12,860 bases of DNA from a virus (Duplodnaviria; Heunggongvirae; Uroviricota; Caudoviricetes), in IMG/VR virus record IMGVR_UViG_2737471837_000008, positions 1 through 12,860 of that record. One strand, given 5' to 3'. This document shows, in pieces, positions 1 to 12,860 of the stretch (positions are counted from its first letter, which is position 1; every line of letters begins with the position of its first letter). The notes under the pieces were generated by a model, which had not been told where the DNA came from, ran no database searches, and was given only the letters and a program-made list of their open reading frames with translations. The position numbers were made by a program, and so were the translations under genes.

Positions 1-180
1 TCACCGTCGCGGCCTGTCCGGTTTCTTCCACTGATACGGCCTCACATCATCCTGCTGGTGGCGTTCCTGTTGCAGCACAACGGAAACAGGCGCTGAACAC
101 CTGTTAATTTTGCTTGCTGGTTGTTTGATTTCGGCAATGCTGCGGATCATCTCCAGCATATCGGCTTCGGTGATGGTCAT
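1..180 (-). CDS. hypothetical small protein (59 aa, MTITEADMLEMIRSIAEIKQ...)
   Basis: ATG at 178-180 preceded by AAGGTG about 7 nt upstream; stop TGA at 1-3. Below the ORF-track size cutoff. No recognisable family. Confidence 0.3.
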   Translation of the reverse strand: MTITEADMLEMIRSIAEIKQPASKINRCSAPVSVVLQQERHQQDDVRPYQWKKPDRPRR

Positions 181-204
181 GATTTACACCTTAGGAAATC
201 TTAG

Positions 205-480
205 GGGCTGGTTGACACTTTCCGGCTTAAGACCTTAACAAATCTTAACATCGCAGGTTGACACACTTGACACTTTTTCGCGAAAAACCTTATCAAACCT
301 TAGCATTTCTAAGCATGGCAACTTGACACTTTTCGCGATTTTTTCGGCTTTTTGACGTGGTAAATCTGGCGCAAAGCCAGTAACGGCGGGGTTTACAGCG
401 AGGTTGACACTTTTTCGCGTTCAGAGTGTAAAGTGTCAACCCGGCAGACGGCCTGACTTGACACTTTTCGCGAATTTTAC
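205..480. repeat. iteron array: four copies of TTGACAC-TTTT(T)CGCG plus partial and inverted copies
   Basis: Full units at 267-283, 323-338, 404-419, 458-473; half-sites GGTTGACAC at 211-218 and 257-264; inverted GTGTCAA at 433-439 facing TTGACAC at 458-464. Second motif CCTTAACAAATCTTAACA / CCTTATCAAACCTTAGCA at 233-250 and 289-304. Lies directly 3' of the winged-HTH gene. Confidence 0.6.
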
Positions 481-485
481 GGTCA

Positions 486-1010
486 TTAATGGGATGATTT
501 TTCCCACTCAGCCAGGGCGTTTAGTCCGGCTTCACTCCAGTTATCCAGCTCATCGGGACAATCACCTGCAACATAGCAGAGCTCACAACGCAGCATACGA
601 ATTGCCAGCCTGGCATTTTCCCGAAAATCATACTGCTCAAAGTAATATTGCCCAGCATAATCCTCAAGGCAGATAGCACCATCATCAAGAAATTGCACTT
701 CACAGCATAATTCCCCGGCTGCATCCTGCACACGCTGCTGTATGTCATCGTCCGTTACTGGTGCAGGGATTTTACCGTCTCTGGCCTTAACTGCTTTCCA
801 GAACTCGCCCCACGTCATTTCCAGCGTTCTTTCTGGCCACATTTCAGAAACGGTGTCTTTCCCCTGTGCTGGTGGGCTGTTCCGCTGCTCTGTCGCCTCC
901 ACATCAATTTTTTTGCCAGACATGATCACTTCGCCTTTCTCGATCCAGTCGTAAACTGTCTGGCGGCTTACGCCTTTGTGTTTAGCATATTCTGCTTTAC
1001 TCATTAGCAT
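486..1010 (-). CDS. MerR/Nu1-type winged-HTH DNA-binding protein with C-terminal Cys cluster; candidate TerS-like / packaging-redirection (Rpp-like) or excisionase-like protein
   Basis: N-terminus MSKAEYAKHKGVSRQTVYDWIEKGEV matches the excisionase/Nu1 HTH pattern; six Cys between residues 102 and 151 (C-x2-C-x5-C at 142-151). ATG at 1008-1010 with GAGAGGG 5 nt upstream. Function inferred, not demonstrated. Confidence 0.6.
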   Translation of the reverse strand: MLMSKAEYAKHKGVSRQTVYDWIEKGEVIMSGKKIDVEATEQRNSPPAQGKDTVSEMWPERTLEMTWGEFWKAVKARDGKIPAPVTDDDIQQRVQDAAGELCCEVQFLDDGAICLEDYAGQYYFEQYDFRENARLAIRMLRCELCYVAGDCPDELDNWSEAGLNALAEWEKSSH

Positions 1011-1019
1011 ATTGCCCTC

Positions 1020-2057
1020 TCATGAAATAACGTTGTGTGCTGTCTGCCCCTGTGACTTCAGCTTGTTTTCAGCATATGCCTCGAACACCGTCACCCACGC
1101 ATCACCATCGGCAGTAAGATACGCTCCGATGTGGCGAACGGACTTAACCAGAAATTTTCCGGTGAACGTGGTCGAGTTTTTGGAGATAACACTGGGCGCT
1201 GTAGTATTAGTCATGAGGATCGACGATGCTCCTGAAAACATTCCCTGAGGCAGTTCGATCACATCACTACACCGTATATCTCCCCGCAACGGGCATTTAA
1301 AACTGACGGTAAAAGGCTTTATCCATGTTGGTTGGCCTATTAATTCATAAGGTTCAATTTTCTTTATTTTCCCCAGTTCCAGTGATGAATTATCATAAAG
1401 ACGAATGCGATCTGGTAACATAATAATGCCTACCCCGCTATATCCTTTCTGACGAATAATCGCTTTCGATAAACTTCGCACAGCCATAGCCAGCGAACCT
1501 ATATCAAGGTAAACCAGTGGAATATCTTCAGGTAAAACCAGGTTATCACTGACCGAGGATTCAATAATTTTATCTGGATACGCCTGTTTCAAAACACGCG
1601 ATAACACGTCTCCTAATTTTTCTCCCTGAAATCCAGTACCGCTAAATCTCACAGGAGAACCATCTTCTTTTTTTCTATAAACGGGGTTAACAACCAGATT
1701 CAACGTCTGGTTGGTGCCAATCCAGTTAGCATAAGCCATATAGACTTCACCATAGATAATCTCTCCCTGTTGATCTGGATTAGCCAAAGGAAGTCCAGAA
1801 GCAAAGCCAGCAGTTAAGCTAACAATGCATCCGTTGAGATTTACACTTTGCTGTAACATCTCAATAGGTAAGCCATAAATTGTCAGCATCGTTCCGGAAC
1901 CAACAACATCCAGGCCGGTTACTTCAAAGTCAAATTCAACATGCAACCCACATCCTGGTGTTTCACTGGTATCAAAAGGCCCAATGGGGTTCCCATTGCT
2001 ATCCACTGGCGGCTTACCAGTTTTAGGGTTAATAATTTCCAGTCGGTAATAACGCAT
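1020..2057 (-). CDS. hypothetical protein, 345 aa, beta-rich, no recognised family
   Basis: Long ORF with protein-like composition; ATG at 2055-2057 overlaps the upstream stop (TAATG); 9-nt gap to the downstream winged-HTH gene. Confidence 0.7.
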   Translation of the reverse strand: MRYYRLEIINPKTGKPPVDSNGNPIGPFDTSETPGCGLHVEFDFEVTGLDVVGSGTMLTIYGLPIEMLQQSVNLNGCIVSLTAGFASGLPLANPDQQGEIIYGEVYMAYANWIGTNQTLNLVVNPVYRKKEDGSPVRFSGTGFQGEKLGDVLSRVLKQAYPDKIIESSVSDNLVLPEDIPLVYLDIGSLAMAVRSLSKAIIRQKGYSGVGIIMLPDRIRLYDNSSLELGKIKKIEPYELIGQPTWIKPFTVSFKCPLRGDIRCSDVIELPQGMFSGASSILMTNTTAPSVISKNSTTFTGKFLVKSVRHIGAYLTADGDAWVTVFEAYAENKLKSQGQTAHNVIS

Positions 2058-2392
2058 TAGTAAACCTCGAACTGATTAGTACTTTCACGAAAAATGAGCT
2101 TTCCCGGAGCAAATGGAAGTGCCAGATTGATGTCGTAACCATCAGGGGAAGCAATCAGAGGCGTGTATACAATGACCTCACCAGAACTGTTTTTCAGTTC
2201 CAGATAATAGCGATTCGCATACAGATTGAACGGAACACGGGCAAATAAAATTTCCCCTCCCATCCTGAATTTAAATTTGAAAGGTTTTTCCCCATCAGGT
2301 TTGAATGGTATAAAAGTATTCATACTCCAGACTCCTGCACAATTTGATTCTTGATACCTGACAATGATTGCCACTAAATTATTTAGTGGCAT
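2057..2392 (-). CDS. hypothetical protein, 111 aa (or 88 aa from internal ATG)
   Basis: ATG at 2390-2392, 7 nt after the stop of the 223-aa gene; alternative start at MNTFIPF with AGGAG upstream. Beta-rich; no recognised family. Confidence 0.55.
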   Translation of the reverse strand: MPLNNLVAIIVRYQESNCAGVWSMNTFIPFKPDGEKPFKFKFRMGGEILFARVPFNLYANRYYLELKNSSGEVIVYTPLIASPDGYDINLALPFAPGKLIFRESTNQFEVY

Positions 2393-2399
2393 GATTCAC

Positions 2400-3071
2400 T
2401 CACTCTGTTTTTTCCAGTTGAGCCAGCCGCCCGGATATTTCTTCCAGTTTTTCCAGGGCTGGCTTGCAGGCCGCATCAATAACGTCCCGGACCATTCCGG
2501 CAAGCTGCTCTTCTGCTGTCGGCGTTGTTACTTCCACACCTGATGGTTTCCCGCCCTTATCCCATACGCCCAACGGCACGAGCGCAACGTGATCGATAAG
2601 AAATGGCGTACCCTCAATAAAAAAATTGTCCTCGCCCATTACATCAGGAACTTCTGCCCCACCGGACGCACCACAAAACACAACCGACGGGCTGGTGGAT
2701 ACCTCCCCCCGTGCTTTCTGGATGTAATCGATGATTTCCTGCCCGTAAATCCGGCATACGCCCCACACCTCGTCACCGCGAATATACGGCAACATAACGG
2801 TGCCAATAATGCGCGACCGTTCGCCCACGTCTTCAAGGGTTTTGCTTTCGGGATGGTCGATAATGACGGGTACTCCGGCGCAACGTTCCAGGAACTGCGG
2901 ATTGAGATAAGTTTGCGGTGAACGCCAGACAAATTCTTTTTCTTCGGCGCGGTAGGCCATGCCCGTCCCTGTAATACGCAGGTTAACCAGCCACATGTTG
3001 GAGAACTGATAAGGCGACGGTAGCTGACCGTCCCGAATCTGCTTCGCCGCCTCAATTTCTGTTAAAAGCAT
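2400..3071 (-). CDS. hypothetical protein, 223 aa, with G-A-S-G-G (GxSxG) motif; possible serine hydrolase/protease
   Basis: ORF with ATG at 3069-3071 (no obvious SD). GASGG at residues 134-138 and His73 in VIIDHPE. Enzymatic assignment is inference from the motif alone. Confidence 0.65.
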   Translation of the reverse strand: MLLTEIEAAKQIRDGQLPSPYQFSNMWLVNLRITGTGMAYRAEEKEFVWRSPQTYLNPQFLERCAGVPVIIDHPESKTLEDVGERSRIIGTVMLPYIRGDEVWGVCRIYGQEIIDYIQKARGEVSTSPSVVFCGASGGAEVPDVMGEDNFFIEGTPFLIDHVALVPLGVWDKGGKPSGVEVTTPTAEEQLAGMVRDVIDAACKPALEKLEEISGRLAQLEKTE

Positions 3072-3135
3072 AATGTTATCCGGTTATAAGCAATAAGCCC
3101 CGCCAAATCCGGCAGGGCTGAACTCAGCACGTTTT

Positions 3136-3714
3136 TCATGCCCCCGCGAGGCTTGCAGTGTTAATTTTGACCAGGCGACGGGGAGGGATTTTGAAAGCAC
3201 TAAGCCAGTTATTCGGATCCCCCTGATATTCAGTAATCCGCCGTCCGTCTTCATCCATTCTTACGGTTTTACGCAAATAGCCCGGCGTATTTTCCACAGC
3301 CCACTGAACACTGTCTTTTGCAGCCTGGTAAATCTGATCTTCCAGCACCGCCAGCGTTGCAGAATCTGAAACGGAACGAATATCCACATCACTGAATTTT
3401 TTAGCCAGCTTCTGTGCACCAATTAATGCACGCTTGCGGTAATCCATCGACTTTTCACCAGCAAACGGGGCTGGAGCGCGACGGCCCATATTGCTGTATG
3501 CGGAATCTGCTTTAGCCTGGGCTTCTGCCAGTGAGGATTCATCTTCGACTGACGCGACGATGTTTTGATTAGCGTTATCCTCTTTTATGAAATCCTGTGC
3601 GGGGATCGCATTCAGAATTTCGATAATCTCCTGCGGAGTGCTGCCCTGCGACTCTGACAGAGCGTTAACCACCTCCATCAGTTTTAATCGCAAATCTTCT
3701 TTGCTTGCTGGCAT
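3136..3714 (-). CDS. hypothetical protein, 192 aa, helical with acidic low-complexity segment
   Basis: ORF track starts at GTG 3723; the ATG at 3712-3714 (MPASKEDL...) with GAGAGGTGG upstream is the more likely start. No recognised family. Confidence 0.6.
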   Translation of the reverse strand: MPASKEDLRLKLMEVVNALSESQGSTPQEIIEILNAIPAQDFIKEDNANQNIVASVEDESSLAEAQAKADSAYSNMGRRAPAPFAGEKSMDYRKRALIGAQKLAKKFSDVDIRSVSDSATLAVLEDQIYQAAKDSVQWAVENTPGYLRKTVRMDEDGRRITEYQGDPNNWLSAFKIPPRRLVKINTASLAGA

Positions 3715-3752
3715 TTTTACCACCTCTCTTTTTCACCAAAAAATCACGACCA

Positions 3753-3932
3753 TCAGGCCGGACGTTCTACGGGATAAAGCGCCCGCTGCATTAAACGCCG
3801 GGCGACCTCATGAATGCTCGGAGCAATCCCCAGCGGAGAATTGCGGCGTTCCTCGTCCTGGATGCGCTGTAATGCTTCAATCTGATCACGAGCGAGTAAA
3901 ACGGGTTTCACGCTGGCTTTTCTCATAGTCAT
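3753..3932 (-). CDS. small protein (57-59 aa), possible RHH-like DNA-binding protein
   Basis: ORF-track start is TTG at 3950; ATGs at 3930-3932 and 3924-3926 follow AGGAG. Sequence MTMRKASVKPVLLARDQIEALQRIQ... has a strand-helix-helix pattern. First gene after the terminators. Confidence 0.45.
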   Translation of the reverse strand: MTMRKASVKPVLLARDQIEALQRIQDEERRNSPLGIAPSIHEVARRLMQRALYPVERPA

Positions 3933-4050
3933 ATCTCCTGAACAAAACAATGGTTATGATTGCATAAACTGAAATGATGATCTACATCATTGCAATTTAT
4001 GAAACAATAACGCATGATGATCGCGTTCTTCCCATTGACTTCAATCACCT

Positions 4051-4122
4051 GAAAAACAAAGCCCGCAACACTTCTGGCTGCGGGCTTTTTACTGGCACAA
4101 AAAAGCCGGGAAAAATCCCGGC
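4051..4122. terminator. tandem intrinsic terminators (one bidirectional) just 3' of the PerC-like gene
   Basis: Hairpin GCCCGCA(4061-4067)/TGCGGGC(4079-4085) flanked by A-run 4052-4060 and TTTTT 4086-4090. Second hairpin GCCGGGA(4105-4111)/CCCGGC(4117-4122) preceded by AAAAAA 4099-4104, i.e. a T-run on the minus strand. PerC-like stop is at 4128-4130. Confidence 0.6.
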
Positions 4123-4127
4123 CTCCG

Positions 4128-4415
4128 TCACTGACTGCAATTTTTCGATCCAGGGTATTTCCTGAATGCCTTACCATTGGGCTGATGTAATCCCATCCCG
4201 GCATGTGCCCGGCTGATGGTTTCGCGCATCTCCCCGAAATTATCCTGCCTTGCTGGTGGGCGTGCTGCCTTGCGGATACATTCCGCGCGACGTTTTGCCG
4301 CCTGTTCCCGTGCCTTGTCATCATTCGCCAGCATGATGACCTCAGCCCACCGCGCCGCCGCTCTCCGGTACAGACCACGCGCTTCCAGTGCTTCCGCTTT
4401 GCTGTCGTGAATCAT
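4128..4415 (-). CDS. PerC-family transcriptional regulator-like protein (95 aa)
   Basis: AEALEARGLYRRAAARWAEVIM... matches the PerC/Pch family signature as I recall it. ATG at 4413-4415 overlaps the upstream stop (ATGA); AAGGAG upstream. Confidence 0.7.
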   Translation of the reverse strand: MIHDSKAEALEARGLYRRAAARWAEVIMLANDDKAREQAAKRRAECIRKAARPPARQDNFGEMRETISRAHAGMGLHQPNGKAFRKYPGSKNCSQ

Positions 4416-4990
4416 GCGCCTGTTTTCTCCTTTGCTGCCCGGCGCTGACGTTTGCGCTTCTCATTCAGCGCCACCAGCCGCGTTTCTGCGTCCTGTTGTT
4501 CCTGTGGTGTCACCTCGCCGCACGGCTGGCCTTTCAGGTCGTAACGTGCACCACCAGCCATTAAGGCGCGGTAATAGCGCGGAGACTGCGCATAAGATGC
4601 CAGCGTCGCACGTAATGCCCCTGGCCCGAATGCCAGCCCCCTGACGGCGAGATCCTGCATCAGGTCGTCGAATATCCCCACCTTAAGCGGCTTCGGTGCT
4701 TCCCGGCTGAATAATTCAGGCCACAACTCAGTGAGGCGGTTAACGCGCCTGCGGTTTTTGCGCTGGCGTTTGGTCATATGCCGCCACGGTGTCGCCCCTG
4801 TGGGCTTCTGCTGCGCTTTCTGGTTACCGGGCATCACTTTATGCGCCGATGTGGTTTTATCCTGCTCCTGTGCCGCCTGCGTCGTTTTCTGCGGCGTGCC
4901 GTAAATGCCTTTAGGTTTTCTGTTAATGGTCAGCGTTGTCATGCTTTGCCCCATCGTTTTTACTGATTGTTTCATGCCCGGCACTTTCAT
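4412..4990 (-). CDS. FinO/ProQ-domain RNA-binding protein (RNA chaperone family)
   Basis: WPELFSREAPKPLKVGIFDDL...LRATLASYAQSPRYYRALMAGGARYDLKGQPCGEVTPQEQ aligns with the ProQ N-terminal FinO domain (PLKIGIFQDL...LRSALRLYTSSWRYL...RVDLDGNPCGELDEQ). Start uncertain (ATGs at 4990, 4975, 4954, 4942); lysine-rich N-terminal tail. Confidence 0.8.
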   Translation of the reverse strand: MKVPGMKQSVKTMGQSMTTLTINRKPKGIYGTPQKTTQAAQEQDKTTSAHKVMPGNQKAQQKPTGATPWRHMTKRQRKNRRRVNRLTELWPELFSREAPKPLKVGIFDDLMQDLAVRGLAFGPGALRATLASYAQSPRYYRALMAGGARYDLKGQPCGEVTPQEQQDAETRLVALNEKRKRQRRAAKEKTGA

Positions 4991-5282
4991 CTACCGGATA
5001 CCACGCAAATGATCCAGGTTCATCAGAAAGAATGAATTTTGTGTTTGGCAAATACATGCATTCGTAAAAACCATCTTCCTGATGATACGGTGCCATTCCA
5101 TACTCACCAGTAAGAATCGGTAATATTTCAGAATAAATTTCTGAATCACCAGAATAAAACACATCACAAATCGCCCATGCTGCAATCGGACTATACCAGT
5201 CGTTGCCATTGTCATTCCTGAATTTCGCCCACCACCCCTGAACCGCTGGCGAAATATTTTTTGGTATGGCTTCAAGAAACAT
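4923..5282 (-). CDS. hypothetical protein, 119 aa, aromatic-rich
   Basis: ATG at 5280-5282 with AGGGGG 5 nt upstream; overlapping opposite-frame ORF 4991-5332 looks like junk. No recognised family. Confidence 0.5.
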   Translation of the reverse strand: MFLEAIPKNISPAVQGWWAKFRNDNGNDWYSPIAAWAICDVFYSGDSEIYSEILPILTGEYGMAPYHQEDGFYECMYLPNTKFILSDEPGSFAWYPVDESAGHETISKNDGAKHDNADH

Positions 5283-5357
5283 ACAACCCCCTTTGCAACT
5301 CTATTTCTATATTTTCGTGATAAAAATGCCAATTATTCACACTATTCCATTTTGATT

Positions 5358-5635
5358 GTGAACAGTCGTGAATAGTTAGTGAACAGTTTTTCAATAACTG
5401 TTCACCATGTTTTTTAGTTTAAAATCATATGGTTATTTTGTTTCAGTGAACAGTTGAACAGTTACCCCCTATAGAATTTAATTTGCAGTGAAAAATGATT
5501 CACCGTTACAAGTTACAATGCGTTTTAAAAGTTTTAGCCGAAACTGTTCACGCCGTTCACTTCGTCGATGAATCCAGTAATGACGCGGCTTTTAGAGGTG
5601 AACAGTAGTGTTCAGTAGTGTTCACAACTGTTCAC
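5358..5635. repeat. replication-origin-like iteron cluster (GTGAACAG / CTGTTCAC) around AT-rich spacers
   Basis: GTGAACAG at 5358-5365, 5379-5386, 5446-5453, 5598-5605; variants at 5368-5375 and 5454-5461; CTGTTCAC at 5398-5405, 5544-5551, 5628-5635; tandem TAGTGTTCA at 5606-5625. AT-rich 5406-5445 and 5461-5490. Starts at the primase/helicase stop codon. Confidence 0.7.
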
Positions 5636-7404
5636 TTTTCATGGATTTTTGGCACAGCGGGTAACCATTCATTGGCACTATCAGCCAACTCCATGTTGTA
5701 GCGCATTCCGACATTGGTCTTTGCCTTCTTGTACTCAGCCCCATATTCTTTCATCACTTTTGGAAAATCTTTGCCAAAATTCGTTAGATTTAATGGCTTA
5801 TCGAAACCATAAGCATCCATATATGCAAGATATGCATGGTAGAGATAAATGCGAGGGGCTCTTGGATATATATTCAGGTTTCCCATGAACATTCCTACAG
5901 CTTCACCAAGTTCGACAATATGGTTACAAAAAGCATATAGCGGATCAGTATGGCGTTTTACTTCCATTGCTTCTTCACCATCACGTTGTTCGAGCAGTAA
6001 TGTTCTTGCTTTTTCGGGATCTGAAAAATTTACCAACAGCCTACGGACTATTACCGGAATTTCTGCTGCGATTTTTTTTGGTAAACATGTGTCCTTGTTT
6101 TCTTCCGCTATCGGATTATTGAACTGAAAAATAACCCTACGGCGTGAAATACCTCCCGCTCTTTCTGTAAAAACCATCGGTTTATTATTTGTTATCAAAA
6201 CAACTGAGCGTAAGACGGTGGTGTATCTTTTTTCATATTTCGGATTAATTTGCAGAGGATCCCCACCTGTTATAGCTTTAATACCATTACCTTCGCCAAA
6301 ATATTTAGGTTGGTCCGGTAAAATAATCAGACTTTTACCAACCAGTTGCTCACGTCCACCAGCATCATCTAACGCTTTCATATCACTGCCTGCGGTGTTC
6401 TGCTCACCCGCCAACATTCTGGCAATTTGAGTAAACATACTTTTACCACTTCCACCTTCGCCAGTTGCTTCAATGAATAATTGCCAGTCGTAGCGATTAG
6501 CCAAAACCATAAACAGAGCAGCACATATCCGCTTCATCTTTGATGAATCGTATCCTGCTGCATGTGACAGCCAACGATGAAAATGGGGCGCATGGTCATG
6601 AATATTTTCACCAAGCGCAGGTGGCGTATAATAAATTCCATTATGCGAAGTGATCCAGTGCTCTGGTGAATGAGGTAAAAATCTACCACTTGTTATGTCA
6701 TAAACTCCATTTTCAAAAGGTATTATGGTGTCACGCTGTTCTCTCATTACGGGTACAGATATTTTTAAAGCATCAACCGCGTTACTAATTGCCCGCTTAC
6801 TGAAATTTGTCTTATTTTTTTCGTAAATTGATACCATTTTACGACTCAACTCCATATCAGATATTTTTTTCCACACTCCAGAACAGTATGCATAAGCAAA
6901 ATTGTTACCAGGGTGAACAGCTATTTCCTCAAAGCATTCAGCCAAAAGTGAAGCCCGCTCGTTATCCGCCATTCTGGAAAGAGATATTTTGTGTTTTTTC
7001 TCAGTCCTTACTGACAGAATATCCCCGCGCTCTGCCTGTTCGCGGATCCGTTGCAGGTAGTCGCGCCAGTTCTCCGGCTCCCGGTCGGTGATACCTTTGT
7101 ATAATTTCGCATCCTGTACGCCAGCCAGCGCCAGCTTTTCAGCGATAGCATTGATCTGGATTGGTTCGATCTCCCCAGCGAGATAGACACGCGCAAAGCG
7201 GCGTTCATCGTCGACAATGCGGATATTCGCCAGGTCTGCCAGTTGCTTCGGCCCCAGGTAAACAGGTGGCACGTTATCGCCGTGTTTTCGTCCTTCGCTT
7301 TCAATCCAGTGTTGAGCATGGGCATAAGCGTCCGTCCCGGCAAAAATGATTACCTCGGTGAATTTATCCTTCGGCTGATATTTTAAATTCGGTGCGTTTT
7401 TCAC
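5632..7404 (-). CDS. P4-family primase/helicase-type replication protein (D5-like SF3 helicase domain)
   Basis: 590 aa with Walker A GEGGSGKS (GX4GKS) and the overall pattern of P4-alpha/D5-type C-terminal helicases. GTG start at 7402-7404 overlaps the upstream stop (GTGA); first ATG is about 143 codons in. Confidence 0.85.
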   Translation of the reverse strand: MKNAPNLKYQPKDKFTEVIIFAGTDAYAHAQHWIESEGRKHGDNVPPVYLGPKQLADLANIRIVDDERRFARVYLAGEIEPIQINAIAEKLALAGVQDAKLYKGITDREPENWRDYLQRIREQAERGDILSVRTEKKHKISLSRMADNERASLLAECFEEIAVHPGNNFAYAYCSGVWKKISDMELSRKMVSIYEKNKTNFSKRAISNAVDALKISVPVMREQRDTIIPFENGVYDITSGRFLPHSPEHWITSHNGIYYTPPALGENIHDHAPHFHRWLSHAAGYDSSKMKRICAALFMVLANRYDWQLFIEATGEGGSGKSMFTQIARMLAGEQNTAGSDMKALDDAGGREQLVGKSLIILPDQPKYFGEGNGIKAITGGDPLQINPKYEKRYTTVLRSVVLITNNKPMVFTERAGGISRRRVIFQFNNPIAEENKDTCLPKKIAAEIPVIVRRLLVNFSDPEKARTLLLEQRDGEEAMEVKRHTDPLYAFCNHIVELGEAVGMFMGNLNIYPRAPRIYLYHAYLAYMDAYGFDKPLNLTNFGKDFPKVMKEYGAEYKKAKTNVGMRYNMELADSANEWLPAVPKIHEK

Positions 7405-7691
7405 TTCTTACCTCCCGCAACCAACATTGCCCGGATTTTTTTAATATTCGTGGCTGCACGTCTCGCCACTGCCTGTTGTTTGTTTTCCACCAGAATAAAA
7501 TCACGATCAAACTGACGGCGCGGCATTACGCAGTCATATTCGTAAACCTCACGGCGGTAGGTGATATTGCCTGGCGTAACGTGACGAATAACCACTCGCC
7601 CCCCACGTCTGGTGTCGCGGTAAATATCTCCGTGTCTGATTTCAGGCCGAGAGAGACCGCTGGCAGTAAAGCCAGAATTTTTCTTTTTCAT
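7401..7691 (-). CDS. hypothetical basic protein, 96 aa, translationally coupled to the primase/helicase
   Basis: ATG at 7689-7691 with AGGAAA upstream; stop overlaps the helicase GTG start. No recognised family. Confidence 0.6.
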   Translation of the reverse strand: MKKKNSGFTASGLSRPEIRHGDIYRDTRRGGRVVIRHVTPGNITYRREVYEYDCVMPRRQFDRDFILVENKQQAVARRAATNIKKIRAMLVAGGKK

Positions 7692-7695
7692 GGTT

Positions 7696-7896
7696 TTATT
7701 TTCCTGTCAGCAGTTCCGGTTTTATTTCCGCACGAATACAGAGTTCAGAAAAAAATTCAGGAGAACCAACAATCTCATTACTTTTCAGTCGGCATTGTGA
7801 TTTCACTTTCCCTTTATCCAGGTAAACCAGTACGCGTCCGGTGAAATCATCTGGCACACTCAGGTTAACTGTCATTGTTGCAGGCTGATTACCCAT
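7696..7896 (-). CDS. small protein, 66 aa, single copy of an FTG-x-LV...NG-V-S...L module
   Basis: PDDFTGRVLVYLDKGKVKSQCRL...SPEFFSELCIRAEIKP aligns with both halves of the neighbouring 121-aa protein. Start overlaps the upstream stop by 8 nt. Confidence 0.6.
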   Translation of the reverse strand: MGNQPATMTVNLSVPDDFTGRVLVYLDKGKVKSQCRLKSNEIVGSPEFFSELCIRAEIKPELLTGK

Positions 7897-8254
7897 GATT
7901 CACCCCCTGAATGACCTGATAACCGCAACTGGTCAGCAACTCGATAAATTCCGGCAGTGTTCCGAAACAGCAATCATCTCGCAGCCGTTCTCGGGATACT
8001 TCAACGCCGTTTTCGTAGTGACTCACCATGCGTCCGGTAAAATGCAGATCATCATCGTGATGGCTCGTTAACGGCTTAATCAGTCGCGCACGTTCTGCCA
8101 GCTCCAGCAATGCTTCAACGCTTCCGGCAATTGCACCATCCGGCAGGTGATAATTACTTGCCACGCGTCCATTCTCCACGTTAACCAGTAGCTGCCCGGT
8201 GAATTTCTCATCAAACTGAATGCTGTTAAGGTCAGAAATTGACAGGTTATGCAT
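7889..8254 (-). CDS. small protein, 121 aa, tandem duplication of the same ~50-aa module
   Basis: DEKFTGQLLVNVENGRVASNYHL...SVEALLELAERARLIKP and DLHFTGRMVSHYENGVEVSRERL...LPEFIELLTSCGYQV. ATG at 8252-8254 preceded by AGGAGGT; overlaps the upstream gene as ATGCATAA. Confidence 0.65.
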   Translation of the reverse strand: MHNLSISDLNSIQFDEKFTGQLLVNVENGRVASNYHLPDGAIAGSVEALLELAERARLIKPLTSHHDDDLHFTGRMVSHYENGVEVSRERLRDDCCFGTLPEFIELLTSCGYQVIQGVNHG

Positions 8255-8450
8255 GGTGCACCTCCTGGCGAATACGGGCGGCGAATACCATCACGCAACC
8301 AGCCGGGGATTGCTGGCGCGCTTCCTGTTCGCTGGTGGCCTCGATGTGAATCACGCGCGGTTGTGCCGTACTCAGGGCGATAAAACGCCAGATGTATTTA
8401 TTCAGGTTGTGCGAGTCCCGCCCTTGCGGGTGTGTGGTATGATTTAACAT
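8247..8450 (-). CDS. hypothetical protein, 67 aa (MLNHTTHPQGRDSHNLNKYIWRF...)
   Basis: Internal ATG at 8448-8450 with GAGG 6 nt upstream; this is the C-terminal in-frame part of the 403-aa ORF-track entry. First gene of the leftward replication operon. Confidence 0.5.
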   Translation of the reverse strand: MLNHTTHPQGRDSHNLNKYIWRFIALSTAQPRVIHIEATSEQEARQQSPAGCVMVFAARIRQEVHHA

Positions 8451-8539
8451 AGCTACCTCGATACTTTCGCTATCGTTGGTGGTTAGAAGCCCCGTTACTG
8501 CTCCAACAGTGCGGGGTTTCGTCATTTTATGACTGATAA

Positions 8540-8640
8540 AAATCAAGTGTCGGACACATGTTATTTTATCGGTGTGGGACACGTCAAGCATTGCATTAAA
8601 CTTTTTTCTCGCTATCATTGTCGGACACCAAACCAATCGG
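8540..8640. promoter_or_regulatory. divergent promoter/operator region with repeated TGTC-G-GACA palindromes
   Basis: TGTCGGACAC at 8548-8557 and 8619-8628, variant TGTGGGACAC at 8573-8582, inverted variant at 8696-8704. Candidate rightward promoter TTGCAT(8591-8596)-16 nt-TATCAT(8613-8618); candidate leftward promoter TTGACG(rc 8582-8587)-18 nt-TAACAT(rc 8558-8563). Confidence 0.45.
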
Positions 8641-8649
8641 AAATCAGAA

Positions 8650-8829
8650 ATGGCAACGAAATCAGTAAATGCAAAATCGAAAAGAATAGATGCACGTGTC
8701 CCACTCCATATCGTTGATGCCATGGATAAGGTCAAAGAAGACGGCGAAAGTACAGGGCAGTTTGTAACAGCCGCATTAGAAGGCGAGATCAAACGCCGCC
8801 AGCGTCGCAAGGCCAAAGAGCAGGAGTAA
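8650..8829 (+). CDS. ribbon-helix-helix (CopG/Arc-like) DNA-binding protein, 59 aa
   Basis: MATKSVNAKSKRIDARVPLHIVDAMDKVKEDGESTGQFVTAALEGEIKRRQ fits a strand-helixA-helixB RHH layout with a basic tail. Only convincing plus-strand gene; opposite-strand frame through it reads as Ser/Leu/Cys-rich junk. Confidence 0.6.
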   Translation: MATKSVNAKSKRIDARVPLHIVDAMDKVKEDGESTGQFVTAALEGEIKRRQRRKAKEQE

Positions 8830-8886
8830 CCATCACTAGCGCCGTGGAGTGATGAACTGTGGCGCACAGGGTTACAGGTATATACG

Positions 8887-9063
8887 ATGACTGACAAATC
8901 ATTAAAGAAATTATCCTCATCCAGGAAAAAACAACGCAAAAATGCGGTAAGCGAACAAGAACAGGAAAGATTCGCACCTTGTTCGTTTGCTCTTGAGAAA
9001 TTCCTTAAAGAGCACAGGAAAAAGCTCTCGTTGCAAACCTTGGAACGAACCAAATCTGACTGA
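8887..9063 (+). CDS. possible small basic protein, 58 aa (MTDKSLKKLSSSRKKQRKNAVSEQEQERF...)
   Basis: ATG at 8887-8889, stop TGA at 9061-9063, downstream of the RHH gene on the same strand. Weak SD; below the ORF-track cutoff. Confidence 0.3.
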   Translation: MTDKSLKKLSSSRKKQRKNAVSEQEQERFAPCSFALEKFLKEHRKKLSLQTLERTKSD

Positions 9064-9458
9064 TCACATTGCCCACCAGCCGCAAATGTGGCATTGTTGG
9101 TGATGCGTTCAAGTATGTAGCTTTTCCACTGGCGGCTCTCTGCGGTCGCCTTTGTTTTATCCAGAACGAAATCAGACATCAGATTGATCAGCACCTGGCG
9201 ACCTGACAAAATCGCATCAGTCGCGCCACCAGCAAAATTTTTTGCTTTCCGGACAGCGTGGCCAACGGCATTTTGCAGCAAAATATTCTGCATTTCTGGC
9301 GTGCTGTAGTAACGGTGATCAGTGCCTTCACATTGAACGAACTTGTCGCTAAAATTCACCCACATAGCAAACATCGCGGTGCTGTAGGTAATTCGTTCAC
9401 AAAGGCGCTCCGGCAACGGGGCGCTTTCTCTTTTTGTAACGGTCAGAGCGTTACACAT
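9064..9458 (-). CDS. hypothetical protein; convincing only over roughly the first 130 codons, 3' end undefined
   Basis: ATG at 9456-9458 overlaps the antirepressor stop by 8 nt. Protein-like composition to about 9064, then junk-like sequence antisense to the plus-strand genes, with no stop until 8247. Confidence 0.4.
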
Positions 9459-10299
9459 GGCTGTTTTCCTCCATGCGACGGGCTAACCAACGCTGCGAAA
9501 GACGAATTAATTCAGCCTTCCGCTGGTGGTAGTCCTGGCCTAACTCAATCAGCGTGATATTGCTCTGCTCAAGGTAAGAAAGGTGCTCAAGCTGCAACGT
9601 GCTCATGTGGTCGCGTGGTTCGCCTGTGATGCCGTTCGCCTGCGCCCACTGTTTTGCAGTCATGCCACCCAGCACGATACGCGCCAGCATATTGGCTTCC
9701 GTGGTGTAGTGGTGCTGGAGTGTGTTTTTACCCAGTTCAGCCCGGTACGCCTCCAGCGCGGCGCACATCGGCTTAAAGTAGCTGGCAACGGTGATACGGG
9801 CTTTCAGTTCCCTGCGTAACGCTGCGGAACGCACTGGCGCTACCTTGTGTAGCTCCTCCTCGCATTTGATGAAGTACTGACGAACGGCGCGGCCCTGTTC
9901 GGTGCGTTCGACCATCGCCAGTTCTTTCGCCATGTTCGTGGAGATCAAATACTCTTCACTGCGACGATCACCGCCGCGCTTTGTTGTCCAATCAGAATCA
10001 AACTGTTCAATATTTACACTTTGGTTCCCCCGTTTCGGGGAATCAAAGTACAAATTTTCTACAACTTCAAAATCCACGCCATTTTTAAATCCGTACTCAT
10101 CAATGCGTCCTTTAATCCAGGTTGTGAAATCACGCTTCACACCCAGCGCCTTATGCAACGCTCTGGCGCTAACAATATTGGTTTCACGCCCGCCAATAAC
10201 ACCGGAAATAACCGGGATAATATCGCCGAAATTTTGCAGATTCTGGTTTTCAGGCCGAACGAAGCCCTGCCCCTGTACGGGCGTTTTTGGAAATTTCAT
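9451..10299 (-). CDS. AntA/AntB-family phage antirepressor-like protein (282 aa)
   Basis: N-terminal IPVISGVIGGRETNIVSARALHKALGVKRDFTTWIKGRIDEYGFKNGVDFEV matches the AntA antirepressor domain pattern. ATG at 10297-10299 with AGGAG 6 nt upstream. Confidence 0.75.
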   Translation of the reverse strand: MKFPKTPVQGQGFVRPENQNLQNFGDIIPVISGVIGGRETNIVSARALHKALGVKRDFTTWIKGRIDEYGFKNGVDFEVVENLYFDSPKRGNQSVNIEQFDSDWTTKRGGDRRSEEYLISTNMAKELAMVERTEQGRAVRQYFIKCEEELHKVAPVRSAALRRELKARITVASYFKPMCAALEAYRAELGKNTLQHHYTTEANMLARIVLGGMTAKQWAQANGITGEPRDHMSTLQLEHLSYLEQSNITLIELGQDYHQRKAELIRLSQRWLARRMEENSHV

Positions 10300-10574: not shown

Positions 10575-10833
10575 ATATTCACCTTGTAACGTCTATAAAG
10601 GTGTACATAGCTTGCATTAAGAAAAGTGATATTTATAGATGCTTACCATTATGAATGGCGAATACCATTTCAGTGAAATAGCTCCACCTTTTTTTAATAA
10701 TGGCGTTTACTATTTTAAGTATCATGCTGACGTGAAACACGAAGAAAAATTACTGTTCTTACGATTTAATCTGCATTGGTGGTTACTTTTTTTTGAAAGG
10801 AAACCACCATTTTTCTGGAATAGCGACCACTAT
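10575..10833. promoter_or_regulatory. AT-rich alpA upstream region with perfect 8-bp inverted repeat
   Basis: TGGTGGTT (10777-10784) and AACCACCA (10802-10809) separated by 17 nt; about 260 bp of AT-rich non-coding sequence. Regulatory role is inferred. Confidence 0.4.
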
Positions 10834-11547
10834 TTAACTTTTTGTTTTTTTTGGTCTTCTACCAATACGCTTCAGATGTTCAGGCCTTAAAATCAGATTC
10901 ACAGCCCTAGCAACATTAGAACCCGCCCCCCTTTTTTTCAAATATTCAAGTACCTCATGCTCTGTCGGAGCCGTCTGTGGGTCATCTGGGTCATACGTCG
11001 ACCATAGTTCCCTTATAGCATCCTGCACATACTCCAACCCATCACTCTTATGCCCATAAGTACACAAATACTCGTCAGGATTAATTACCTGATGAGATGA
11101 TTCAATGATTGCTGGCGGATTAACTTCCTTAACAGGTATAGGGCGAGGGCATCTCGCAAAATCAACGCTCTCATTTTTTATCCACTCATATAAAGAATGG
11201 CGACTAATTAAAGTTTTATCCTTGCTTATCTCATATGCACGATCGGTCAGTTGCGCTGATGTCAGACGTTTGTACTCAATATCACAAACATTTCCCCAAT
11301 TATCGTACTCAACTATTTCAGAGGTACATTCAACAGGAGTTAAGACACCACGACGGATGGCTGTTACCATTCCATTAGCCAACCCCCATGCCATTTTCCA
11401 ACGTTCATGTTTATTATCTCTGACATGTTCAAGAGTAGGGTAATCATAAGGATCAATTCCGGCCAACAATAAAGCGGCCTGGGTGATAGAAAACTCCTGT
11501 ACTGTTCGCCAGTGGGATAAGTCAGGAATGTTTTCCACAATTGGCAT
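10834..11547 (-). CDS. hypothetical protein, 237 aa, between integrase and alpA
   Basis: ORF track starts at TTG 11562; ATG at 11545-11547 (MPIVENIPDL...) follows AAGGGGGAG. Basic C-terminal tail (RIGRRPKKTKS). No recognised family. Confidence 0.65.
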   Translation of the reverse strand: MPIVENIPDLSHWRTVQEFSITQAALLLAGIDPYDYPTLEHVRDNKHERWKMAWGLANGMVTAIRRGVLTPVECTSEIVEYDNWGNVCDIEYKRLTSAQLTDRAYEISKDKTLISRHSLYEWIKNESVDFARCPRPIPVKEVNPPAIIESSHQVINPDEYLCTYGHKSDGLEYVQDAIRELWSTYDPDDPQTAPTEHEVLEYLKKRGAGSNVARAVNLILRPEHLKRIGRRPKKTKS

Positions 11548-11645: not shown

Positions 11646-12860
11646 TCACCCGCATTTTCCGAACTCACCATGCACCACATTTCCGCCATGCTCGAGCGAA
11701 TCCATATAGTCGGCATACCACTGGAGCATCTCCCGGCGACCATCCAGATATTGCGCATGGTTGTATGTGCCACGAATTGAGTTTTTATCGACGTGTGCGA
11801 GCTGCGTCTCTATCCACGCGGTGTTATAGCCCTGCTCATGCAAAATGGTGCTCATGGTGTGCCGGAATCCATGACCAGTAACGCGCCCGGCATAGCCGAT
11901 ACGACGAATGAGCACATTCATCGCCATTTCACTCATTGGCTTACTGTGGTGAATACGACCGGGGAAAATAAACTGATACTGGCCTGTCATGTTTTTTAAC
12001 TGCTCCAGTATTTTTATCGCCTGTTCTGGTAATGGCACACAATGCGGACGGCGCATCTTCATTCGTTCTTTAGGCACTTCCCACAAACGATTATCAAAAT
12101 CGATCTCCTGCCATTCTGCCTGCCGTAATTCCCCGGGTCTGACACCTGTCAGAATTAATAGCCGCATTGCCAGTTTGACGATCTGGCTTCCGGTGTACGT
12201 ATTAAAAACGCGGAAAAATTCCGGCAGTTCGTCGGCCTTCAAATAGGCGTAATGCTCTTTTTTATGTGGAGCAAATGCGCTCACCAGGTCAGGGGCTGGA
12301 TTATATTCGGCGCGTCCGGTGATGATTGCGTACCGGAACACCTCGCCGCATCGCTGGCGAACCTTACGCAATTTTTCAGTCGCACCACGGTCATTAAGAC
12401 GGGAAAGAACCGCCAGCAATTCCATCGGCTTAATTTCTGCGATCGGCCTACCGCCAATGTACGGAAAAACATCTTTTTCAAACGTCTCGATCATTTCCTC
12501 GGCGTATGACGATGACCACCTGTCGATCCGCTTTTCGTACCATTCGCGAGCAATACCCTCAAAAGTATTGCCAAATTTGCTCGCCTGTTCTCGCTTTTGG
12601 GCTTTTCTGGCCTCACTTGGATTTATACCACCAGCAAGAAGCCTTTTAGCCTCATCCCTTGCCGCCCTGGCATCAGACAGAGACACATCAGGGTACACAC
12701 CCAACGACAACATTTTGGGCTTTCCTGCAAACCTGTAGCGCAGTCGCCACCCTTTCGAACCGTTCGGCTCAATGAGCAACGAAAGCCCGTTACCGTCATT
12801 GAGTGTATAAGCCTTTTCTTTCGGCTTCGCGCGCCTGATGGCAAGGTCTGAAAGCAGCAT
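11646..12860 (-). CDS. int: tyrosine site-specific integrase, P4-type
   Basis: N-terminus MLLSDLAIRRAKPKEKAYTLNDGNGLSLLIEP...VSLSDARAARDEAKRLL is typical of P4-like integrases; catalytic HGFRHT and RGTYNHAQY motifs present. ATG lies on the last three bases of the window, so the true start may be a few codons beyond it. Confidence 0.95.
   Translation of the reverse strand: MLLSDLAIRRAKPKEKAYTLNDGNGLSLLIEPNGSKGWRLRYRFAGKPKMLSLGVYPDVSLSDARAARDEAKRLLAGGINPSEARKAQKREQASKFGNTFEGIAREWYEKRIDRWSSSYAEEMIETFEKDVFPYIGGRPIAEIKPMELLAVLSRLNDRGATEKLRKVRQRCGEVFRYAIITGRAEYNPAPDLVSAFAPHKKEHYAYLKADELPEFFRVFNTYTGSQIVKLAMRLLILTGVRPGELRQAEWQEIDFDNRLWEVPKERMKMRRPHCVPLPEQAIKILEQLKNMTGQYQFIFPGRIHHSKPMSEMAMNVLIRRIGYAGRVTGHGFRHTMSTILHEQGYNTAWIETQLAHVDKNSIRGTYNHAQYLDGRREMLQWYADYMDSLEHGGNVVHGEFGKCG

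What the first reader, a model, noticed from the sequence alone, without database searches (positions are those of the whole stretch)
205..1010. Nu1-type winged-HTH protein next to a TTGACAC-TTTTCGCG iteron array: candidate packaging site
A 16-bp unit recurs four times in 270 bp with half-sites and one inverted copy, directly 3' of a gene whose N-terminus resembles the terminase-small-subunit/excisionase HTH and whose C-terminus carries six Cys. In satellites that redirect helper packaging, a TerS-like or Rpp-like DNA-binding protein recognises an island-specific cos/pac site with repeated binding sites, so this pair could be that site and its binder. Alternatives: a multi-operator promoter for the small ORF at 1-180 (the unit contains the -35-like TTGACA), or a second origin.
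Basis: partly seen in the sequence, partly recalled or inferred. Interest (0 to 1): 0.6.

Follow-up and report, generated by a model that had tools for sequence, protein, structure and literature searches.

The report
Satellite packaging-site-like repeats and binder
A phage-parasitic island in E. coli carries a protein whose DNA-binding head is borrowed from a phage small terminase, next to a cluster of the short DNA boxes that this kind of head reads in real phage packaging sites. It is therefore most likely the island's packaging signal, although the usual DNA cutting site is missing.

Summary
Window 183-472 holds nine TTKACAC boxes. Four are the long form TTGACACTTTT(T)CGCG and two are inverted. 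There are none elsewhere in 12.8 kb.

The array lies 14 bp past the stop codon of a 174-aa gene (486-1010, minus strand). This is the last backbone gene of a ~14-kb P4/PICI-like satellite at tRNA-Gly.

The protein has a winged-HTH N-domain (residues 1-44), a linker, and a family-specific alpha/beta C-domain. Its six cysteines are not conserved.

Box arrays follow homologous genes across Enterobacterales (48-fold enrichment).

The same boxes also form the cosB of real cos sites. In Xenorhabdus they lie between a BZS1/phiNP-type cosQ-cosN and a genuine small-terminase gene whose recognition helix matches the 174-aa protein. Sister terminases with other helices have other boxes (ATGTCCCA, GGTAACA). 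Yersinia, Lelliottia and Rahnella/Rouxiella elements place the boxes between that cosN and non-terminase proteins with the same N-domain, an Rpp-like layout.

Origin, att/excision and promoter readings are disfavoured.

The main gap is that this island has no recognisable cosN and its helper is unknown. Binding of the boxes is strongly inferred; the packaging role is the best but unproven reading. It is a new variant of a known kind.

The parts
183..189 (+). Degenerate box TTTACAC, the most distal one, 3 bp upstream of the 59-aa ORF start on the other strand
   Evidence: TTKACAC degeneracy seen in true cosB arrays
212..221 (+). Box TTGACACTTT (half site without the CGCG tail)
258..264 (+). Box TTGACAC (half site), abutting the next box
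267..282 (+). Full unit TTGACACTTTTTCGCG
   Evidence: 96-99% conserved among 25 E. coli-lineage variants
323..337 (+). Full unit TTGACACTTTTCGCG
352..400 (.). Unique conserved block between boxes (minus strand GCTGTAAnCCCCGCCRTTACTGGnTTTGnGCCAGATTTACC). Conserved in Escherichia, Raoultella, one Pantoea locus and two uncultured viral contigs, absent in Rouxiella, Buttiauxella and another Pantoea locus. Function unknown; speculative place for a cut site
   Evidence: alignment A2; no match in phage records
404..419 (+). Full unit TTGACACTTTTTCGCG
   Evidence: 100% conserved
426..441 (-). Two overlapping inverted boxes (GTGTAAA + AAAGTGTCAACC on the + strand). The inverted pair with the next box is conserved in all genera
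458..472 (+). Full unit TTGACACTTTTCGCG, 14 bp from the stop codon of the 174-aa gene
187..316 (.). Second repeat family interleaved with the boxes: CTTAR pentamers at about 10-bp spacing (187-205, 232-250, 287-316). Conserved next to boxes in other genera; possible bending or second-protein sites
   Evidence: (D1, D2, D5)
879..1010 (-). Codons 1-44 of the 174-aa protein: winged-HTH domain of the type I small-terminase kind (GVSRQTVYDW recognition helix)
486..878 (-). Disordered linker (residues 45-55) and family-specific alpha/beta C-domain (about 57-174, weak dsRBD-like fold), plus stop codon. No relative outside this family
1..180 (-). 59-aa ORF immediately after the array, first of the variable cargo side (followed by sieB outside the window). 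Present in most E. coli members, absent in E. ruysiae and Raoultella

Best explanation
Window 183-472 is most likely a cosB-like (terminase-recruitment) packaging-recognition site of a P4/PICI-type phage satellite, and the 174-aa protein is its reader.

Step 1, strongly inferred. The N-terminal winged-HTH of the 174-aa protein is a copy of the DNA-binding domain of one specificity class of lambda-head-type small terminases. It binds the nine TTKACAC(TTT) boxes, probably several copies at once, with the wing in the adjacent A-tracts.

Step 2, inferred. The bound array marks island DNA for the helper phage's packaging motor. The family-specific C-domain would replace the terminase C-terminal region and contact a helper terminase subunit. 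This is analogous to Rpp or to a SaPI small terminase.

Step 3, unknown. Where and how the DNA is cut is not known. No known cosN is present. Cutting would be either at an unrecognised site (candidate 352-400) or non-specific, headful-type, next to the array.
For: 1. Box enrichment and confinement to the array.

2. In 13 loci fetched by protein similarity alone, there are 43 boxes in the 360 bp after each gene against 40 in 210 kb elsewhere. That is 48-fold, Poisson 5e-56.

3. In 25 E. coli-lineage variants the boxes are 97% conserved. Other intergenic bases are 84% conserved and third codon positions 84%.

4. In all seven elements where a related N-domain gene is present (L031, L073, L081, L085, L108, L114, L120), the same boxes lie between a BZS1/phiNP-type cosN and that gene. 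The cosQ motif GGGTCCTT was seen in L081, L085, L108 and L125. Phage BZS1's cohesive end is annotated.

5. The Xenorhabdus protein next to such an array is a full-length small terminase: 41% identity, E 1e-45 to BZS1 TerS, and phrog_57 over its whole length.

6. Helix and box co-vary on a shared cosQ-cosN. GV(T/S)RQT(I/V)YDW goes with TTKACAC. GV(N/D/H)RKTI.RW goes with ATGTCCCA, including an E. coli prophage with gpA, gpW, portal and gpE. GVSRKTVTSW goes with GGTAACA. The 174-aa protein has the first helix.

7. The gene order is the same as in P4: late operon, then cos, then cargo, then int.

8. Other cis functions are accounted for elsewhere: origin iterons at 5355-5636 and att with probable arm sites more than 900 bp away.

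9. The island backbone has no other packaging candidate.
Against: - No lambda, BZS1/phiNP or P2/P4-type cosN or cosQ is in the island or near any array that follows a 174-aa-type gene.
- The gene precedes the array here, whereas in true cos sites the array precedes the gene.
- The C-domain has no similarity to any terminase, to Rpp, or to the C-domain of the proteins next to cosN.
- The only helper lead is Rac-SA53-like phages, which are homologous to four island genes. Rac-SA53 has a different small terminase (Terminase_2), and neither Rac-SA53 nor the relative PdC23 has a cluster of these boxes.
- No terminase with the type I helix was found in Escherichia.
- The winged-HTH fold is equally that of Xis, Cox and BldC regulators.
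- No termini data could be obtained.
Confidence: 0.55

Rival explanations
1. Interference device rather than own packaging signal. The protein would bind the cosB of a competing or helper phage whose terminase reads TTKACAC boxes, or the array would titrate that terminase, blocking phage packaging. The island's own transfer would use something else.
For: The N-domain is a mimic of a terminase DNA-binding domain. Rpp has such a double role (PMC6739421). There is no cosN next to the array.
Against: Terminases with this helix were found only in Xenorhabdus, Arsenophonus and one unassigned record, not in Escherichia, Klebsiella or Pantoea where these islands live. The array is conserved in cis with the gene in every genus, which a pure trans-acting inhibitor would not need.
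Confidence: 0.13
2. Transcription factor with an operator array, in the manner of Cox, BldC or Xis filaments. It would control or insulate the downstream cargo genes (59-aa ORF, sieB) or end the long operon.
Against: No promoter or terminator consensus lies inside 181-485. The downstream genes are not conserved while the array is. There are no boxes at any other promoter region of the island. The closest sequence relatives of the domain are small terminases, E 5e-11.
Confidence: 0.15
3. A second replication origin or a partition (centromere-like) site bound by the 174-aa protein.
For: It is an iteron-like array in a non-coding region of an element that replicates autonomously after induction.
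Against: A P4-type iteron field (ACTGTTCAC, about ten copies) lies directly after the primase gene, as P4's crr does after alpha, and its sequence differs from the boxes. No partition ATPase is present. The domain is not of a Rep or ParB type.
Confidence: 0.07
4. An excision/recombination directionality factor with its binding sites in an att arm.
For: The fold and weak profile hits point to excisionases.
Against: The att core copies are at window about -911 and 13025. Probable arm repeats (GGGGAT/ATCCCC) lie beside attR, more than 900 bp from the array, with two genes in between. The island already has an AlpA-type protein. The protein is three times the size of an excisionase.
Confidence: 0.03

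Closest known systems
Rpp and the divergent cosB of E. coli PICIs (EcCICFT073; PMC6739421, PMC9026076)
   Same: A satellite-encoded protein with a small-terminase-like winged-HTH but no terminase C-terminal region, paired with island-specific binding sites that differ from the helper's cosB. The related Yersinia, Lelliottia and Rahnella/Rouxiella elements found here keep a helper-type cosN and swap only cosB, exactly the Rpp logic.
Lambda gpNu1 with cosB R sites, and the BZS1/phiNP-type small terminases (PF07278/DUF1441 on some members)
   Same: The N-domain is homologous (E 3e-9 to BZS1 TerS over 38 residues; profile E 5e-11). Repeated 7-10-bp boxes in both orientations lie next to the gene. 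Box sequence co-varies with the recognition helix.
   Different: Only residues 1-42 align. There is no coiled-coil or TerL-binding part, no terL next door and no cosN.
SaPI small terminase (TerS-SP) redirecting a headful helper
   Same: A satellite-encoded DNA-recognition subunit next to its own packaging signal. This would be the closest model if cutting is sequence-independent.
   Different: The SaPI protein is a full homolog of the helper's small terminase. Here only a DNA-binding domain from a different (cos-type) terminase family is present (from my own knowledge of SaPIs; not tested here).
P4 cos region
   Same: It has the same place in the element: after the last late-operon gene and before the cargo and int. 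The element also has a P4-like primase with TGTTCAC-type iterons just after it.
   Different: There is no similarity to the P2/P4 cohesive-end sequence, and P4 encodes no cos-binding protein of its own.
Xis, Cox and BldC winged-HTH proteins binding arrays of direct repeats
   Different: Those are single-domain proteins of 50-90 residues acting at att sites or promoters. Here the array is far from att and from promoters.

Membership tests
Small terminase of lambda-head-type cos phages (Nu1-like; BZS1/phiNP/PF07278 group) | N-terminal winged-HTH DNA-binding domain homologous to the family | tested here: met
Small terminase of lambda-head-type cos phages (Nu1-like; BZS1/phiNP/PF07278 group) | Central and C-terminal self-association and TerL-binding region | tested here: not met
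   Only residues 1-42 align with phrog_57 or with BZS1 TerS. The true member from L081 aligns over its whole length.
Small terminase of lambda-head-type cos phages (Nu1-like; BZS1/phiNP/PF07278 group) | Gene next to a large-terminase gene and downstream of cosQ-cosN | tested here: not met
   No terL in the island. No cosQ/cosN.
Small terminase of lambda-head-type cos phages (Nu1-like; BZS1/phiNP/PF07278 group) | Array of repeated binding boxes (R elements) beside the gene | tested here: met
   same box type as the cosB of L081 and L216
Rpp (redirecting phage packaging) proteins of Gram-negative PICIs | Sequence homology to RppA/B/C | tested here: not met
   RppC is in the PDB (6hn7_A), but phmmer against all PDB chains found nothing relevant at E<=1
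Rpp (redirecting phage packaging) proteins of Gram-negative PICIs | TerS-like winged-HTH without a TerL-binding tail, encoded by a satellite | tested here: met
   the island is a satellite
Rpp (redirecting phage packaging) proteins of Gram-negative PICIs | Island cos with helper-like cosQ/cosN and a divergent cosB | tested here: not met
   Not met in the window. Met in the related Yersinia, Lelliottia and Rahnella/Rouxiella elements.
Rpp (redirecting phage packaging) proteins of Gram-negative PICIs | Heterodimer with the helper's small terminase | not testable with these tools
   Needs two-hybrid assays, pull-down or a co-structure
Excisionase / recombination directionality factor (Xis, Cox, AlpA type) | Winged-HTH fold | tested here: met
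Excisionase / recombination directionality factor (Xis, Cox, AlpA type) | Binding sites within an att arm beside the core | tested here: not met
   The array is more than 900 bp from the attR core, with two genes in between
Iteron origin of a P4-type primase-helicase (ori/crr) | Repeats of the TGTTCAC type read by the alpha-like protein, next to its gene | tested here: not met
   Such repeats are at 5355-5636 and match P4 type 1 repeats. The boxes at 183-472 are different.
Phage satellite of the PICI / P4-like kind (the island as a whole) | Integrase at a tRNA att site, AlpA, primase with adjacent origin, about 10-15 kb, no full virion gene set | tested here: met
   Helper dependence itself was not tested.

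The most novel reading that the evidence does not exclude
The 174-aa protein may be a modular adaptor. A DNA-binding head captured from a cos-phage small terminase would be fused to a new domain that docks onto the packaging motor of an unrelated helper, possibly a headful one such as Rac-SA53-like myoviruses. A nine-box array without any cosN would then be enough to start packaging of the island. The same head-plus-box cassette has been fused independently to three different C-terminal partners in different satellites.
Probability: 0.25. Interest if true: 0.75.

Novelty: new variant of a known kind. Interest (0 to 1): 0.6.

Why it matters
About 3% of complete E. coli genomes (170 of 5426) and many other Enterobacterales carry this island backbone. 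Related PICIs of this kind are reported as lacking any recognisable packaging module (PMC11773190). A defined protein-site pair gives a direct handle for finding their helpers and for building or blocking transfer of such islands.

The comparison also yields a natural specificity table for one small-terminase family: three recognition helices paired with three box sequences on one shared cosQ-cosN. It further turns up Rpp-like proteins in Yersinia, Lelliottia and Rahnella/Rouxiella that are unrelated in sequence to Rpp. This suggests that swapping cosB while keeping cosN has evolved more than once.

Tried and rejected
- Searched for cosN/cosQ of lambda, BZS1/phiNP and P2/P4 type in the island and near all arrays: none. 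Smith-Waterman of three real cos regions against the island scored no better than shuffles.
- Tested the conserved block 352-400 as a possible cut site. It has no phage match. A pattern scan of viral contigs gave chance-level hits. The E. coli genome search was swamped by a chance 21-mer in napF. A weak local match to the P4 right end (score 21) was not pursued.
- The metagenome scan for contig ends at the array returned only two relevant contigs, so there is no termini information.
- Rfam found nothing in 1-1100. NCBIfam and Pfam gave no family above cut-off.
- EcCIMP1, a characterised related PICI, lacks this gene and these boxes.
- Rac-SA53 has none of the boxes, PdC23 has four scattered copies and no cluster, and neither has the central block.
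- The zinc-cluster idea was dropped because the cysteines are not conserved.

Full report
**What is in the sequence.**
The window matches E. coli 08-00022 (window 1-1100 is 100% identical, 4 mismatches over the full 12,860 bases). All major genes are on the minus strand. Read in gene direction the order is:
- integrase (11646-12860), a 242-aa ORF, AlpA, an AntA/B antirepressor
- Icd-like and small ORFs, DUF4222
- a 590-aa primase (5632-7404) followed by a non-coding iteron field
- a 119-aa ORF, ProQ/FinO, PerC, a 65-aa ORF
- four genes with phage structural homologs (195, 223, 111 and 345 aa)
- the 174-aa gene (486-1010), the repeat region (183-472), and a 59-aa ORF (1-180)
- sieB, outside the window.

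A 22-bp copy of the 3' end of tRNA-Gly lies just beyond the integrase. A damaged copy lies about 910 bp beyond window position 1. The element is therefore about 14 kb, one of several islands stacked at glyU next to ETT2. It is a P4/PICI-like satellite.

**Check of the observation.**
The repeats are as described. Allowing the degeneracy seen in related arrays (TTKACAC) gives nine boxes, two of them inverted. TTGACACTTT is found six times exactly in 205-480 and nowhere else exactly in 12.8 kb. No shuffle reached the observed count.

The gene is annotated in RefSeq and has 106 homologs in Escherichia, Citrobacter, Klebsiella, Raoultella, Enterobacter, Pantoea, Serratia, Rouxiella and Yersinia. 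All are 'hypothetical' apart from a few generic helix-turn-helix or DNA-binding labels and one automatic UniRef 'Repressor' label.

In an alignment of 35 homologs, residues 1-44 are nearly invariant. The rest averages about 50% identity, and the six cysteines are not conserved.

An AlphaFold model (pLDDT 88.8) shows a winged-HTH at residues 1-44, a disordered linker, and an alpha/beta domain from about residue 60 to 170.

**The protein and the boxes belong together.**
- Thirteen loci were fetched from species genomes by protein similarity only. They hold 43 boxes in the 360 bp after the gene and 40 in the remaining 210 kb, which is 48-fold enrichment with Poisson 5e-56. The two loci with no boxes after the gene are L011, a truncated copy, and L008, whose downstream sequence has no boxes.
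- The common core in all genera is aaaaGTGTCAA(c/g). The CGCG tail is specific to the Escherichia lineage.
- Among 25 distinct E. coli-lineage variants the boxes are 97% conserved. The rest of the spacer is 84% conserved, the same as third codon positions of the gene.

**What kind of site it is.**
The closest sequence relatives of the N-domain are small terminases of lambda-head-type cos phages such as Serratia phage BZS1 and Citrobacter phage phiNP. In those phages three GGTAACA boxes lie between the annotated cohesive end and terS.

A scan of viral contigs for the inverted box pair returned many copies of this island family. It also returned a second set of elements. In every one of these, the same TTKACAC boxes lie between the sequence GGGCATTGCGCGCCG(C/T)G and a gene with a related N-domain. 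In L081, L085 and L108 (and in L125, which has no such gene in the fetched stretch) this is preceded by GGGTCCTT. That is the cosQ-cosN of BZS1 and phiNP.

One of these genes, from Xenorhabdus, is a genuine full-length small terminase: 41% identity to BZS1 TerS, E 1e-45, and phrog_57 over its whole length.

This terminase family has about 300 members in Enterobacterales prophages and is often mislabelled 'RNA polymerase sigma-70'. Three N-domain types go with three box types on one shared cosQ-cosN:

| Recognition helix | Boxes | Where seen |
|---|---|---|
| GV(T/S)RQT(I/V)YDW | TTKACAC | Xenorhabdus stockiae |
| GV(N/D/H)RKTI(T/S)RW | eight or nine ATGTCCCA | X. bovienii; an E. coli prophage with gpA, gpW, portal, protease, gpD and gpE |
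| GVSRKTVTSW | GGTAACA | BZS1, phiNP |

The 174-aa protein carries the first helix (GVSRQTVYDW). This natural swap is the strongest evidence that this domain reads TTKACAC boxes and that arrays of them are cosB-type sites.

**An Rpp-like parallel.**
The other members of the second set are 184-194-aa proteins from Yersinia pseudotuberculosis and enterocolitica, Lelliottia, and Rahnella/Rouxiella. They have the same N-domain but a C-terminal part unrelated to terminases.

They sit where terS would be, behind a helper-type cosN and a swapped cosB. BZS1-type terminases occur in Yersiniaceae. This is the arrangement described for Rpp in E. coli PICIs (PMC6739421, PMC9026076), reached with a protein that shows no sequence similarity to Rpp.

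Their C-domain is also unrelated to that of the 174-aa protein (hhalign probability 0.5%). The head-plus-box cassette has therefore been joined to three different partners.

**Why packaging is the best reading for this island.**
- The array sits at the end of the long operon, before the variable cargo and the att/int junction of the circular form. P4 has its cos in the same place.
- The primase has its own P4-type iterons just downstream (ACTGTTCAC, about ten copies, 5355-5636), as crr follows alpha in P4. An origin role is therefore unlikely.
- The att core and probable arm repeats are more than 900 bp away, so an excision role is unlikely.
- No promoter or terminator consensus was found inside 181-485. 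The genes downstream differ between islands while the array stays. A dedicated operator is therefore unlikely.
- The gene and array are part of the conserved backbone, whereas the structural-homolog module is optional. Nothing else in the backbone looks like a packaging function.

**What does not fit.**
- The island has no lambda, BZS1/phiNP or P2/P4-type cosN or cosQ.
- The gene precedes the array instead of following it.
- The C-domain has no relative outside the family and only a weak dsRBD-like fold.
- A conserved unique block between boxes (352-400) is the only candidate for a cut site. It is missing in some genera and has no phage match.
- The only lead to a helper is that four island genes are homologs of Rac-SA53 genes. 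The 111- and 345-aa proteins match rac55 and rac56 (73% and 72%). The 223- and 195-aa proteins match the two halves of rac43, in permuted order. Rac-SA53 has a Terminase_2 small subunit and a Terminase_6N large subunit. Neither it nor its relative PdC23 has a cluster of TTKACAC boxes.
- The cutting step may therefore be sequence-independent (headful) or use an unrecognised site. This cannot be decided here.

**Verdict.**
The binder-site pairing and its terminase/cosB ancestry are well supported by comparative evidence. The packaging role in this island is the most likely function (about 0.55) but lacks a cut site, a helper and any direct data. The zinc, second-origin and promoter ideas are not supported. 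I rate it a new variant of a known kind (satellite redirection of packaging by a terminase-like DNA-binding protein and a private cosB), of moderate to good interest.

Noticed in passing
window 5355-5636: About ten copies of GTGAACAGT/ACTGTTCAC in both orientations fill the gap right after the 590-aa primase gene. They match the P4 type 1 ori/crr repeat TGTTCACC and the position of P4 crr after alpha, so this is probably the island's origin.
   Followed up: partly
window 1020-3723 (345-, 111-, 223- and 195-aa genes): Four island genes are copies of structural genes of Rac-SA53-like myoviruses. The 111- and 345-aa proteins match rac55 and rac56 beside baseplate gene bppV (73% and 72%). The 223- and 195-aa proteins match the N and C parts of head gene rac43 (DUF2213), split and in permuted order. 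The same 14 phages (Escherichia, Yersinia, Pantoea, Klebsiella and others) hit both queries. The module is optional among related islands.
   Followed up: partly
window 10649-10835: Four copies of a 22-nt unit (TTATGAATGGCGAATACCATTT-like) lie between the AlpA gene and the 242-aa ORF. This is probably a regulatory region of the island.
   Followed up: no
L001 13089-13108 and 27025-27046 (window about -911 and 13025): The island's att copies. The int-proximal one is a perfect 22-bp copy of the tRNA-Gly 3' end. The distal one is damaged by two deletions. A second integrase and another island follow toward glyU, and ETT2 type III secretion genes lie on the other side.
   Followed up: partly
L073 (Yersinia-type element), 82-9540: A cosN, TTKACAC array and N-domain protein are followed directly by a complete myovirus tail module (sheath, tube, tape measure, hubs). 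No terminase or head genes lie in between. This looks like a phage-derived element that keeps tails but not heads.
   Followed up: partly
L216, L217, L218, L023, L024 (cos regions upstream of terS): One small-terminase family shares cosQ-cosN but has three box types (TTKACAC, ATGTCCCA, GGTAACA) matching three recognition helices. The family is widely named 'RNA polymerase subunit sigma-70' in NCBI records, which looks like a misnomer. In both Xenorhabdus loci terS is not followed by terL.
   Followed up: yes
L014 4386-8168 (Lelliottia wanjuensis): There are three tandem genes with the same N-domain. Two are fused to unrelated C-terminal parts of about 340 residues with no Pfam match, and no box cluster lies nearby.
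   Followed up: partly
L215 10700-10870 (EcCIMP1 of E. coli MP1): This characterised related PICI lacks the 174-aa gene and the boxes. It has its own array of GGTTCA/TGAACC repeats beside its PerC gene.
   Followed up: no
window 187-316: A second repeat family, CTTAR pentamers spaced about 10 bp apart, some forming palindromes such as CTTAGAAATGCTAAG, is interleaved with the boxes. It is conserved next to boxes in Pantoea, Raoultella, Scandinavium and Citrobacter. It may be a site for a bending protein or a second binder.
   Followed up: partly
window 1-180 and L004 about 8800-8985: The 59-aa ORF after the array ends in W.W.KP..RR, as does a small ORF at the same place in Pantoea. It has weak hits to two PHROG families of unknown function.
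   Followed up: no
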